From positions 13,165 through 77,164 of the forward strand of contig DGYI01000067.1 in NCBI GenBank assembly GCA_002396645.1: 64,000 nucleotides of DNA, given 5' to 3'. The DNA is from Firmicutes bacterium UBA5010. GTDB lineage: Bacteria > Bacillota > Clostridia > Tissierellales > Sedimentibacteraceae. Every line of letters starts with the position of its first letter. Positions within the stretch are counted from its first letter, which is position 1. Below are positions 48,001 through 51,000 of the stretch, in pieces. A program made the position numbers.

Positions 48001-51000
48001 TATTTATTGTTCACGCAAAAAAAGGCAAGGCTTAAAAGGAGGGCACGAGTATAAAAATGATATTAAAAATATTTCTTTCATTTTTAAAGATAGCCTTTTT
48101 AGGCTTTGGCGGAGGATATGCAATGCTGTCCTTAATTTTTGATGAGGCATCTAAATTTGGCATGACAATCGGTGAATTTGCTGATTTGAATGCTTTAGAT
48201 GTCTTAATTCCCGGACCTATTGCTATTAACTCGGCAACATATGTCGGTCAGACATATGGCGGATTTGCGGGAGCATTTTTTGCTACCGCTGCAGTTTGTA
48301 TTCCGTCATTCGTATTTGTTCCTATATTCATGCGATATGAAAACAGAATAAAGGACAACAGATACCTAAATTCAATTTTTGAAAGTGTAAAAGCTGCATC
48401 TGTCGGACTGATATTTGCGGTAGCTATGTCCATAATGTTATCAACTTCATTTAATATGTCAAATATTTTTGATTGGCAAAATATTAATTTTGACTGGCTT
48501 TCATTTGCAGTAGTAATTTCTTCATTTGTGATTCATATTCGTTATGAAATCAATCCCATTATACTTACTCTGTTAGCCGGGGTAATCGGTTGGTTCTCTT
48601 ATTACATTTAAAAAAAAGCGAAACAAGTTTCGCTCTATGAAAGAATCGGAACGATTCTTATATAAAAATATCGGGATATGTATAATTTCATACATCCCGA
48701 TATCTGTGTTTAATTTATTTTTATTCTTGTGTATCAGTTATCTCTTCAACAGTCTCGTCTGCTTTTTCTGTTTTTTCCTTGCCTAAGAACTCAGGCAGCT
48801 CCATACCAGCCATATTAAACATCTCATGCATAGGAGGAATTGATTTCATCAAGCCGGATAAAAAGCCTGCTGTTGATGAATTTTTGCCTTCGCCTGCTCC
48901 GCTGTCCCAAACAGTAACCTTGTCAATCTTAATATTCTTAATAGCTTCAACTTGAATCTTAATAAGATTCTCCATTTTATCGGCAAGCATAAGTCTTACT
49001 GCGTCATTAGATGCTCCGCCCGCTGATGCTACTATTTCAGCAAAACCACTTGCTTGTTTTTTAAGGATTTCTTCGTTACCTCTTGCCTCTGCTTCCATTT
49101 TAGCATAGATTGCATCAGCCTCTCCTCTTGCTCTTCTTCTTATTTGCTCGGCTTGTGCTTCTGCCTCTATTTCCAGTTTCTCTTTATATATTTGTGCTTC
49201 AATAATTATATCTGCTTCCTTTGTTGCACGTTCTTTGGCAGCTCTTTGTTTTTCTGCGGATTCTTCCGCCTGATATGCCTCTTCAAGTGATTTAGCATAT
49301 TGAACTTTTTCAGCCGCAGTCGCTATTCTAAGTGCTTCTGCCTCTTTTTCTCTTCTTAAAGCGTCTGATTTTGCAACTGTAATTTTAGCGGTATTTTCAC
49401 CCTCTACTGCTGTTGCATTAGCACTTGCTACCTGAACTCTTTCGTCTCTTTGTGCATTGGCTTCACCTATAGAACCGTCTCTGTTTTTCTCTGCAACGCT
49501 TTGTCTTGCATCATTTATCGCTTTAGCTGCTGCTTCTTTTCCCAAAGCTTCTATATATCCGGATTCATCATTGATATCTGTTACGTTAACGTTGATTAAT
49601 CTTAAACCAATTTTCTTAAGCTCTGTCTCAACATTTGAAGAAACCGCATCAAGGAATTTATCTCTGTCAGTATTTATTTCCTCTATATCCATAGTAGCAA
49701 CCACTAAACGAAGCTGACCGAAAATTATATCCTTTGCAAGCTCTTGTATTTCATTAAGGCCAAGTCCTAAAAGTCTTTCTGCCGCATTTTGCATAATTCC
49801 GTTTTCTGTAGATATACCTACTGTAAATCTTGACGGTACATCTATACGTATATTTTGTCTGCTCAGCGCATTGGTCAAATTAACCTCTATTGATATAGGC
49901 GTTAAATCCAGATATTGATACGACTGTATAACCGGCCATATAAATGACGCTCCGCCGTGTATACATTTAGCTGATTTAGCGTCTCCTGAGCTTCCCTTGC
50001 CAACCATACCGTAAATAACCAGTACTTTGTCTGACGGACACTTTTTATAGCGTGACAATAATGCTATAAGCGTACCAAAGATTAATAGTACTATGACTAA
50101 AATTAAAATAAGTGTTTCCATCCTTACCTCCATGTTATTATTTCATAGTCTCGACTACATCGAGCCATTTGATAATATCCAGCCTCAATCAAGATTGAGG
50201 ATACGGATATTATACCGCATTGCTTAATTTTATTATATTACCCTATTTGCCATATTACCAGCTTTTTTTCAAATTTGTTTCTCCACAAGTACCGTACCTG
50301 TATCAACTGCATCGACTACCAAGACCATAGATCCTGTGGAAAGTCTTTCGTCATTTTCTGTCATCGCATAAACTTCGGACAAAGTATCTTGTATCATAAC
50401 CTGTATTTTTCCTTTTCCCGCCATATTTGCAGGTATAGGAATATAAACCTGGGCCACTTGGCCTATTGCGTTTTTAATTGTTTTATTTCCGCTGGATTGA
50501 AGCTTTGTAATTGAGTAAAATAACAATGCTATTATAAACATTCCCGCTAAGCCGCTTATAAAAGCTACAAGAATGACTAACGCATAGTTAATTCCCTTTC
50601 CGGATAAAACTACTCCTACCCAACCGAAGAGTGTAAAGAATGCCACGATTCCTCTGACAGAAAAAAATCTAAGACTGGCAGCACTTTCAACGGCATCAGC
50701 TACTGAAACATCAGAGTCAAAATCTGTATCTACATCCATGTCTAAATCCCCGTCAAAATCTATATCGTCATTGCCTATGCCAATGATAGATAAAAATGTC
50801 TGAATGACTAATATAGTCGTCGACGGAATTGCACAATAATAAAATAATTGCTGTATAAATGGTAAGCTTTCCCACCAGCTACGCATAACTTCGTCCTCCT
50901 TGTAAACTTATTTGAGTAAATATTATTTACATTAAATATATACTATTTTTTGAAAAATGTCAATATTTATTTGACTAAATAAAAAAATAATGCTATAATG

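What the first reader, a model, noticed from the sequence alone, without database searches (positions are those of the whole stretch)
50143..50218. Diverged single copy of the same repeat unit in the nfeD-flotillin spacer
TAGTCTCGACTACATCGAGCCATTTGATAATATCC...ATACGGATATTATA is recognisably the 62-kb unit. Its first stem is again compensated (CTCGA/TCGAG). An extra perfect palindrome CCTCAATC-aag-GATTGAGG is inserted into the second hairpin. It lies immediately 5' of the flotillin start, where an extended -10-like GGTATAAT is also present on the coding strand. So the element may be a portable promoter or leader module.
Basis: seen in the sequence. Interest (0 to 1): 0.5.

Follow-up and report, generated by a model that had tools for sequence, protein, structure and literature searches.

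The report
Small portable two-hairpin promoter-side repeat
The sequence before the flotillin gene is a real copy of a previously undescribed ~50-base repeat with two hairpins, which comes and goes in front of unrelated genes in Sedimentibacter-like bacteria and probably acts as a small movable promoter/leader cassette, a known kind of bacterial repeat.

Summary
Window 50136-50220 is a true, diverged copy of the 62-kb unit. It has a compensated first stem and an 18-nt palindrome nested in the loop of the second hairpin. That palindrome reads CCTCAATC-AA-GATTGAGG, not "-aag-".

The genes lie on the minus strand. Read on that strand, the unit is TGnTATAAT-ATCC-GTA-GGATATTAT (H2), CAAATGG, H1, ACTATGn(T/A)ATAAT.

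I found 7 independent loci, plus one probable partial copy, in at least four Sedimentibacter-like genomes. One is a new diverged copy at window 6836-6900.

Both stems show compensatory changes: 6 pairs, with 96% of cells paired.

The element is gained and lost quickly:
- Related species have an nfeD-like/flotillin spacer of only 14-29 nt, without it.
- Three other orthologous sites also show presence or absence.
- The 62-kb array has 3 units here and 2 in a ~96-98% identical strain.

Six of 7 loci put the last hairpin 22-51 nt before a start codon, in the gene's orientation.

Nothing matches in Rfam, plasmids, phages or the literature searched.

Best reading: a new family of small dispersed repeats, comparable to "putative mobile promoters", Correia or BOX elements, that carries extended -10-like boxes and leader hairpins. 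Promoter activity is inferred, not shown. The way it spreads is unknown.

The parts
50136..50220 (-). The flagged copy of the repeat unit (sense strand is minus): 5' -10-like box, H2 with a nested palindrome, linker, H1, 3' box.
   Evidence: R1 70 bits, E=4e-15. R2 73 bits. Alignments.
50209..50216 (-). GGTATAAT, the 5' extended -10-like box. It forms the left arm of H2 on the sense strand. The L005 ortholog reads TGTGGCATAAT.
   Evidence: Sequence. Comparison across family members.
50172..50213 (-). Hairpin 2: arms ATAATATCC / GGATATTAT (9 bp) around the nested insert.
   Evidence: Fold (minus strand, -26.6 kcal/mol, z -3.5). Compensated to ATATGC/GCATAT and ATATCG/CGATAT in other copies.
50183..50200 (.). 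Nested perfect palindrome CCTCAATC-AA-GATTGAGG in the H2 loop. Its stem is identical to H1 of 62-kb unit 1. It is kept in the L005 ortholog.
50165..50172 (-). Conserved linker TCAAATGG (sense). Its AUGG can pair with the CUAU that follows H1.
   Evidence: Invariant or nearly invariant columns in A5.
50150..50164 (-). Hairpin 1: CTCGA / TCGAG. On the sense strand a U-G pair can close a sixth pair.
   Evidence: pairs 59-75, 62-72, 63-69 and 64-68 covary across copies.
50134..50148 (-). 3' end of the unit, CTATGAAATAATAAC: a TRTG-like TATG plus AATAAT, 15 nt before the flotillin ATG.
   Evidence: Sequence. The same motif follows H1 in all copies.
48721..50121 (-). Flotillin (SPFH/Band_7) gene directly downstream, with SD GGAGG at 50127-50131.
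   Evidence: Pfam Band_7, 8.5e-29. Gene call of 466 aa.
50269..50886 (-). Upstream membrane ORF, 'nfeD-like' by position only. In relatives its stop lies 14-29 nt from flotillin.
61999..62161 (-). Tandem array of three units (u1 62006-62058, u2 62056-62108, diverged u3 62102-62159). The array starts with TGTGCTATAAT (62161-62151) and ends 38 nt before the thrE start (TTG at 61974).
   Evidence: The related strain L045 has only two units.
6836..6900 (-). Newly found diverged copy. Its H1 stem is entirely different (AATCGGA/TCCGATT). It lies 51 nt before the start (6792) of a 311-aa ORF, after the terminator of the upstream gene.
   Evidence: R1 24.4 bits, E=7e-4, when not in the training set. 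Sequence.

Best explanation
Window 50136-50220 is one member of a lineage-specific family of small dispersed DNA repeats. The unit is about 50 nt, or about 63 nt with its terminal boxes. It occurs singly or in short tandem arrays in Sedimentibacter-like Tissierellia.

On the gene-sense strand the unit reads: TGn-TATAAT fused to the left arm of hairpin 2; loop GTA; right arm GGATATTAT; linker CAAATGG; hairpin 1, whose stem sequence varies but whose pairing is always kept; then ACTATGn(T/A)ATAAT.

Copies are gained and lost quickly. They end up, in one orientation, between the upstream gene or terminator and the ribosome-binding site of unrelated genes.

The most likely mechanism is inferred, not shown. 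The element would be a portable promoter/leader cassette. Its extended -10-type boxes would give sigma-A-dependent transcription into the downstream gene. Its hairpins would be transcribed as part of the 5' leader, where they could affect mRNA stability or processing. In the nfeD-like/flotillin case they would sit in the intercistronic RNA.

In the flotillin locus the element was inserted into an operon spacer that was originally 14-29 nt long. It would therefore add an internal promoter, a structured intercistronic segment, or both.

How it spreads is unknown. No transposase, no clear terminal inverted repeats and no target-site duplication were found.
For: Real family:
- The core occurs 4 times in the window against 0 expected.
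- A model built from 6 copies found new copies it was not trained on: window 6843-6897 (E=7e-4), L045 5419-5470 (E=3e-10) and L049 5777-5829 (E=4e-7).
- Outside copies are L003 (Firmicutes bacterium UBA2058) and L031.

Structure:
- 6 of 19 pairs have changes on both sides and 96% of cells are paired.
- 0 of 500 shuffles reach these values, and slid controls give 25-44% paired.

Mobility:
- The element is absent from the flotillin spacer in L006, L009 and L010. It is present in the window and in L005, a ~95% identical relative.
- The thrE upstream region has 3 units in the window and 2 in L045 (~96-98% identical DNA). It has none in the genomes whose ThrE is 90% (L049) and 86% (L050) identical.
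- The SLH-gene upstream region has it in L049 but not in L045 or L050.
- The DUF445-murB spacer has it in L031 but not in L054, L056 or L058.

Position and orientation:
- In 6 of 7 loci the ACTATG after H1 lies 22-51 nt before a start codon on the same strand: flotillin, ThrE, a 311-aa ORF, a response regulator, an SLH protein and a DUF445 protein.
- At two loci the copy follows an intrinsic terminator of the upstream gene, so the downstream gene needs a promoter there.

Promoter-like boxes:
- The 5' box is TG-n-(T/G)ATAAT in 5 of 7 loci. It is CGG-TATAAT at 50 kb (TGG-CATAAT in the L005 ortholog) and missing in L049.
- The internal units of the arrays lack the TG.
- The 3' box TATGn(T/A/G)A.AAT is present in all copies.
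- The empty thrE sites in L049 and L050 carry TGTG(T/C)(T/A)ATAAT at the corresponding place.

Wobble pairs:
- G-U wobbles fall on the gene-sense strand 6-7 times and on the antisense strand 3 times. This was read by eye from the aligned sequences and the pair counts. It leans toward folding of the sense transcript.

The family fits the operational definition of 'putative mobile promoters' (PMC3488235).
Against: - No transcription start data exist. Simple sigma-70 scans report no -35/-10 pair on the sense strand inside the 50-kb spacer, so any promoter would have to work without a -35 box.
- TGnTATAAT is not enriched in the window overall: 12 found against 8.9 expected.
- At the flotillin copy the 3' box ends only 15 nt before the ATG. 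That leaves a leader of about 8 nt, which is barely enough to include the SD. The 5' box there lacks the T of the TG motif.
- L003 is an exception: the co-oriented gene is 360 nt away and an opposite-strand ORF is 30 nt away.
- The statistics on orientation are weak. In 4 of 4 co-directional spacers the copy is in the sense orientation, p about 0.06.
- Compensatory changes in perfect palindromes can also come from DNA-level processes such as template-switch correction.
- The family is small in the sequence I could see. No further copy turned up in about 250 kb of related loci.
Confidence: 0.55

Rival explanations
1. A selfish or neutral small repeat (MITE-, REP- or BOX-like) with no role in expression. 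It would sit upstream of genes only because insertions there are tolerated or because its insertion machinery prefers AT-rich -10-like DNA. The -10-like boxes would simply be part of its AT-rich consensus.
For: - Rapid gain and loss, and tandem copy-number change.
- The downstream genes share no function.
- TGnTATAAT is not enriched in the window.
- The boxes of the 50-kb copy are imperfect.
- A second, unrelated-looking hairpin repeat family in the same window shows that this genome tolerates such elements.
Against: - Orientation and distance to start codons are consistent in 6 of 7 loci.
- At two loci the element fills the only space where a promoter can be.
- Stems are maintained by compensatory change even in old, diverged copies such as the 6.8-kb one, where every stem base differs. 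This argues for some constraint.
- No TIR/TSD signature or partner transposase was seen.
Confidence: 0.25
2. A structured cis-acting RNA leader: a protein- or RNA-binding 5'UTR or intercistronic element transcribed from upstream promoters. The hairpins and the conserved single-stranded linkers (CAAAUGG, ACUAUG, loop GUA) would be recognised by a dedicated factor, or would act as stabilisers or processing sites.
For: - Covariation in both helices while the linkers and loop stay conserved.
- G-U wobbles fall mostly on the sense strand (by eye).
- The sense-strand fold is more stable than shuffles (z -3.5 at 50 kb, -2.5 to -2.9 for the 62-kb units).
- It always lies between promoter region and RBS.
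- There is no terminator between the upstream ORF and the element at 50 kb, so it is probably in the nfeD-like/flotillin transcript.
Against: - Downstream genes are functionally unrelated, and the element is absent from orthologs in close relatives. That is unlike a dedicated riboregulator.
- No Rfam family matches.
- If transcription starts at the 5' box, the left arm of H2 is not in the RNA.
- The excess of wobble pairs is not statistically significant.
Confidence: 0.12
3. Operator sites for a DNA-binding regulator. H2 (ATAATATCC-GTA-GGATATTAT) would be a dimer-binding palindrome over the -10 box and start site, and the loci would form a regulon.
For: H2 is a 9-3-9 palindrome that overlaps a -10-like box. 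It has a conserved central GTA and lies close to gene starts.
Against: - The bases that vary in H2 (CC/GG, GC/GC, CG/CG) and nearly all of H1 change while staying complementary. A sequence-specific protein site would not do that.
- Sites are not conserved at orthologous genes in relatives.
- The 50-kb copy has 21 nt inserted between the half-sites and is still kept in L005.
Confidence: 0.06

Closest known systems
Putative mobile promoters (PMPs; Matus-Garcia, Nijveen & van Passel 2012, PMC3488235)
   Same: An operational class: 50-100-nt highly similar sequences found directly upstream of non-homologous genes within a genome, thought to be spread by non-autonomous elements or recombination. 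The present family fits that description.
   Different: PMPs were defined by at least 80% identity, not by structure. This family has two covarying hairpins, tandem amplification and members down to about 60% identity. No Sedimentibacter family is described in what I could search.
Correia repeat-enclosed elements of Neisseria
   Same: Small non-autonomous repeats, mostly just upstream of genes. They carry sigma-70-type promoters and are transcribed into hairpin-forming leaders that RNase III processes (PMC10969869).
   Different: Correia elements are 100-155 bp, with 26-bp terminal inverted repeats, a TA duplication and an IHF site. Here the unit is about 50 nt, I found no convincing TIR or TSD, and units form head-to-tail arrays.
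Pneumococcal BOX elements (boxA-boxB(n)-boxC)
   Same: From my own knowledge: modular hairpin repeats in a Gram-positive genome, with a roughly 45-nt boxB module that varies in tandem copy number and lies near gene starts. PMC10969869 supports only that BOX elements sit in intergenic and regulatory regions and can insert into one another. The 45-50-nt period and the 3-versus-2 unit variation here are alike.
   Different: No sequence similarity is evident. There are no A and C end modules. BOX elements are not known for a fixed orientation or for -10 boxes at the unit boundary.
REP/BIME (REPIN) elements with RAYT transposases
   Same: Short palindromic intergenic repeats whose stems are kept by compensatory change.
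   Different: From my own knowledge: REPs sit mostly at 3' ends of genes, carry a conserved 5' tetranucleotide and have a RAYT partner. Here copies lie 5' of genes, in one orientation, and no RAYT was seen (not searched genome-wide).

Membership tests
   Exact core match at 50147-50172. R1 70 bits. Alignment.
   4 pairs compensated among 6 sequences; 6 pairs among 10 sequences, 96% of cells paired, 0 of 500 shuffles as high.
MITE (miniature inverted-repeat transposable element) | Terminal inverted repeats at the element ends. | tested here: inconclusive
   Read in another phase, GGATATTAT...ATAATATCC are 9-bp inverted ends. These are simply the two arms of H2 from adjacent or partial units, and every locus carries a full H2 at the 5' side.
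MITE (miniature inverted-repeat transposable element) | Target-site duplication flanking each copy. | tested here: not met
   The 5' and 3' TGnTATAAT-type boxes are no more alike within a locus than between loci (permutation p = 0.18). They belong to the element consensus.
MITE (miniature inverted-repeat transposable element) | Dispersed copies with presence/absence polymorphism at orthologous sites. | tested here: met
   7 loci. Four orthologous sites are filled or empty.
MITE (miniature inverted-repeat transposable element) | A partner IS or transposase with matching ends. | not tested
There is no match in the plasmid or phage collections.
Putative mobile promoter (PMC3488235) | Homologous 50-100-nt sequence directly upstream of non-homologous CDSs. 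| tested here: met
   Copies lie upstream of flotillin, ThrE, a 311-aa ORF, a response regulator, an SLH protein and a DUF445 protein.
Putative mobile promoter (PMC3488235) | Actual promoter activity (a transcription start). | not testable with these tools
   Only motif evidence is available: TGnTATAAT-like boxes. The sigma-70 scan finds no -35/-10 pair in the 50-kb spacer.
CRISPR array | Repeats separated by unique spacers of similar length. | tested here: not met
   Units abut head to tail with a period of 45-50 nt and no spacers. The Rfam CRISPR-DR49 hit scores 22 bits against a gathering score of 41.
Any Rfam RNA family | Score at or above the family's gathering threshold. | tested here: not met
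   Only a tRNA in the window. Nothing in L003. Only sub-threshold noise in the two element regions.
Intrinsic terminator | GC-rich stem followed by a U-run. | tested here: not met
   No terminator-like site in 50134-50268 or in the 62-kb array on either strand. The stems are followed by AUCAAAUGG or ACUAUG.

The most novel reading that the evidence does not exclude
The unit is a self-propagating, structured promoter-leader cassette. Its conserved single-stranded motifs and covarying hairpins would be recognised by a dedicated host or element-encoded factor. That would make it a new class of mobile cis-regulatory RNA/DNA module in Tissierellia, spreading by a mechanism without a classical transposase (no TIR, no TSD, head-to-tail amplification). 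It may be related to the second hairpin-repeat family in the same genome, which shares the 'AAATG-hairpin-C(C/T)ATAG / CTATG' grammar.
Probability: 0.1. Interest if true: 0.65.

Novelty: new member of a known kind. Interest (0 to 1): 0.35.

Why it matters
If the unit does carry a working promoter, it shows regulatory rewiring by a very small element: about 115 nt (one ~85-nt unit plus ~55 nt of unexplained origin) dropped into a tight two-gene operon, giving flotillin its own start signal or a structured intercistronic RNA. The same cassette sits in front of an exporter, a cell-wall protein and a two-component system in sister strains.

It would add a Gram-positive anaerobe example to the short list of promoter-bearing mini-repeats such as Correia and the 'mobile promoters'. 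The filled and empty orthologous sites offer natural experiments for comparison.

For annotation, it explains unusually long spacers and strain-variable upstream regions in Sedimentibacter MAGs. If it has no function, it is an ordinary small repeat family.

Tried and rejected
- **Known RNA families.** Rfam at gathering and at permissive thresholds gave nothing. The CRISPR-DR49 hit is sub-threshold and there are no spacers.
- **Plasmid or phage origin.** blastn of the 62-kb array found no match. The one viral-contig pattern hit is a chance match inside coding sequence.
- **Pattern scans of public collections.** Most hits (L001, L002, L012-L030, L032-L043) lack the hairpin or lie in ORFs, for example L022 inside a 656-aa ORF. 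They were discarded. Only L003 and L031 are clear copies, and L044 is a probable partial one.
- **Target-site duplication.** A permutation test was negative.
- **Relic second units** next to the 50-kb, 6.8-kb and 62-kb copies, and an H1-only copy at 3665-3730. Local alignment scores are no better than shuffles (p 0.1-0.5), so I do not claim them.
- **Alternative sigma factors** (sigma-54, sigma-H, sporulation sigmas), checked by eye. The spacing or the conserved bases do not fit, and the relevant bases vary between copies.
- **Leader peptide** starting at the conserved ATGG. There is no SD, the length varies from 2 to 14 codons, and the ATG is lost in L005. Rejected.
- **Antisense (plus-strand) promoter** TTGAnA-N16/17-TAnnAT. 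It looks good in L003 but is broken or absent in the 50-kb, L031, L045 and L049 copies.
- **Terminator function.** There are no U-runs.
- **The NfeD label** for the upstream ORF. No Pfam or NCBIfam support.
- **More copies.** The improved model R2 found none in the window with filters off, or in about 250 kb of related loci.
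Full report
**1. What is at the coordinates**

The flagged stretch lies in a 147-nt spacer between two minus-strand genes. The upstream gene is a 205-aa membrane ORF (50269-50886). The downstream gene is a Band_7/SPFH flotillin (48721-50121). The flotillin start is the ATG at 50121, preceded by GGAGG. An independent gene call also gives 466 aa.

The 26-nt core AGTCTC-N9-GAGCCATTTGA occurs at 50147, 62010 and 62060 exactly, and at 62105 with two mismatches. None is expected by chance. The four units align over their whole length.

The first stem is CTCGA/TCGAG at 50 kb, against CTCAAT/ATTGAG and CTCAAC/GTTGAG at 62 kb. The second hairpin (ATAATATCC/GGATATTAT) encloses a perfect 18-nt palindrome, CCTCAATC-AA-GATTGAGG (50183-50200). 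That nested stem, CTCAAT/ATTGAG, is the same as stem 1 of 62-kb unit 1. The motif has only these two hits in the window, against 0.01 expected.

The second is that the upstream ORF has no NfeD match in Pfam or NCBIfam.

**2. Orientation and anatomy**

Because the genes are on the minus strand, I read the unit on that strand. It then runs as follows:
- TGn-TATAAT-ATCC, loop GTA, GGATATTAT: this is hairpin 2, whose left arm contains the TATAAT.
- The linker (T)CAAATGG.
- Hairpin 1: 5-7 bp with a 3-5-nt loop.
- ACTATG-n-(T/A)ATAAT.

The 62-kb array is three such units head to tail, with a period of 45-50 nt. It begins with TGTGCTATAAT (62161-62151). It ends 38 nt before the ThrE start. By comparison with relatives, that start is the TTG at 61974.

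**3. More copies**

A covariance model from six copies (R1) found a diverged copy at window 6843-6897 that it was not trained on (24 bits, E=7e-4). Here every base of stem 1 differs (AATCGGA/TCCGATT), while the linkers are kept.

A scan of 185,579 species genomes with the strict core found one real copy, in Firmicutes bacterium UBA2058 (L003). The other two hits were chance matches.

A looser pattern in the metagenome collection found L031, a probable partial copy in L044, and about 29 chance hits.

Loci fetched around orthologs gave two further independent copies. One is L045 5419-5470, 37 nt before a response-regulator gene. The other is L049 5777-5829, 33 nt before an SLH-protein gene.

All carriers look Sedimentibacter-like:
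- The window's flotillin is 88% identical to that of S. acidaminivorans.
- The best named match of L031's MurB is Sedimentibacter sp. zth1, at 63%.

The total is 7 independent loci, plus L044.

A second model built on the sense strand (R2) found nothing more. It was run on the window with filters off and on about 250 kb of related loci. From what I could see, the family is small and confined to this lineage. The complete genomes were out of reach.

**4. Structure**

I counted pairs on the 10-copy alignment.
- 96% of cells form standard pairs.
- 6 of 19 pairs show changes on both sides.
- No shuffle out of 500 reaches the observed values.
- Sliding the partner columns drops pairing to 25-44%.

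Hairpin 2 changes CC/GG to GC/GC (L003, L031) and to CG/CG (L045). Hairpin 1 changes at four positions.

I read the non-Watson-Crick positions by eye from the aligned sequences and the pair counts. They are G-U on the gene-sense strand 6-7 times and on the other strand 3 times. That leans toward sense-strand RNA folding but is not significant.

Sense-strand folds are more stable than shuffles: z = -3.5 for the 50-kb copy and -2.5 to -2.9 for the 62-kb units.

**5. Gain and loss**

- *Flotillin spacer.* In S. acidaminivorans and two other relatives the stop-to-start spacer is 14-29 nt and has no element. The window and L005, a ~95% identical relative, have about 147 nt with the element. The 3' junction of the window copy (AAATAATAACATGGAGG) still resembles the ancestral short spacer (AAACATAATTAAAGGGAGG).
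- *thrE upstream.* The window has three units. L045 (~96-98% identical DNA) lacks exactly one 50-nt unit. The genomes whose ThrE is 90% (L049) and 86% (L050) identical have no element. They have only TGTG(T/C)(T/A)ATAAT about 45 nt before the start.
- *SLH-gene upstream.* Filled in L049, empty in L045 and L050.
- *DUF445-murB spacer.* Filled in L031, empty in L054, L056 and L058.

This is the behaviour of a mobile or rapidly turning-over element, not of a conserved leader.

**6. Position**

In 6 of 7 loci the ACTATG that follows hairpin 1 lies 22-51 nt before a start codon on the same strand. The downstream genes are unrelated.

In the four spacers flanked by co-directional genes, the unit is always in the sense orientation (p about 0.06).

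At the 6.8-kb locus and at L045 5419 the unit follows an intrinsic terminator of the upstream gene. A promoter must therefore lie in that interval.

L003 is the exception. The co-oriented gene is 360 nt away, and a possibly frameshifted opposite ORF is 30 nt away.

**7. Promoter-like features**

The 5' box is TG-n-(T/G)ATAAT in five loci. At 50 kb it is CGG-TATAAT, and TGG-CATAAT in L005. Internal units of arrays lack the TG.

After hairpin 1, every copy has TATG-n followed by a hexamer with A at position 2 and T at position 6. The hexamer is TATAAT three times, AATAAT twice, and GATATT and GACAAT once each.

TRTG-n-TATAAT is the Gram-positive '-16 plus -10' form. That statement rests on my own knowledge of Bacillus promoters.

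I tested whether the two boxes are a target-site duplication. They are no more alike within a locus than between loci (p = 0.18), so they belong to the element.

There are caveats:
- The consensus scan finds no -35/-10 pair on the sense strand in the 50-kb spacer.
- TGnTATAAT is not enriched in the window.
- The 3' box at flotillin is only 15 nt from the ATG.

**8. Interpretation**

The best-supported reading is a new family of small dispersed repeats that behaves like the 'putative mobile promoters' of Matus-Garcia et al. (PMC3488235). It also resembles promoter-bearing mini-repeats such as Correia elements and modular, tandemly variable BOX elements (PMC10969869).

What is shown: the family exists, its structure is maintained, it turns over at orthologous sites, and its position and orientation are consistent.

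What is inferred: that it drives or modulates transcription of the downstream gene, and that the hairpins act in the RNA.

The spreading mechanism is unknown. I found no TIR/TSD signature, no partner transposase, and no plasmid or phage copy.

**9. Rivals**

- A neutral selfish repeat whose placement reflects tolerated or preferred insertion sites.
- A factor-binding structured leader RNA.
- Operator sites for a regulator. This one is unlikely, because the variable bases stay complementary rather than conserved, and because the 50-kb copy carries 21 extra nt between the half-sites.

**10. Verdict**

It is a new family of a known kind of element. It is of moderate interest: useful for annotating these genomes and as a natural case of promoter/leader portability, but not surprising in kind.

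Noticed in passing
window 2496-2590, 5222-5314, 48612-48659 (also L005 about 2918): A second dispersed hairpin-repeat family. On the minus strand it reads: a long hairpin (..GATAGGAAAG..CTTTCCTATC..), AAATG, hairpin AAGAATCG..CGATTCTT, (T/C)CATAGA, then GCGAAAC-TTG-TTTCGC plus a T-run, which looks like an intrinsic terminator. One copy sits right after flotillin's own terminator. Its 'AAATG-hairpin-CxATAG' grammar and GAATCGG stem resemble the 6.8-kb copy of the studied element.
   Followed up: partly
It is conserved upstream of flotillin in relatives as a 215-221-aa ORF, also without any Pfam hit.
   Followed up: partly
window 61974-61986 (-): The longest ORF for ThrE starts at a TTG or GTG (61986/61983). 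Relatives show that the conserved start is four codons further in (TTG at 61974, equivalent to ATG GAT GAA in L050), preceded by GGTGA.
   Followed up: yes
window 3665-3730 (-): TGATATAAT is followed by a small hairpin CTCG-TGGAG-CGAG and ACCGTGAATAAATAAA, right before the start of an HTH (ArsR-like) gene. By eye it looks like an H1-only relative of the repeat, but it scores no better than shuffles (p about 0.1; R2 18.7 bits, E 0.56).
   Followed up: partly
window 56258-56326 (+): A weak model hit inside the HD-domain gene (GGATAATATC...GATATATTATCAAATGATG). It recurs in the orthologous genes of L004, L005 and L045. It is most likely chance similarity within coding sequence.
   Followed up: no
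L003 1886-1910: The ORF just after the UBA2058 copy starts ATGAAAAAAAAGTAA. It then continues as a signal-peptide-like reading frame in another frame. This could be a frameshift at the A-run or an assembly error.
   Followed up: no
window 51109-52038 (+): An HTH_3 + TPR regulator (RNPP/Rgg-like architecture) is transcribed divergently from the nfeD-like/flotillin pair. A good TTGACT-17-TATAAT promoter with TG lies at 50971-50999.
   Followed up: no
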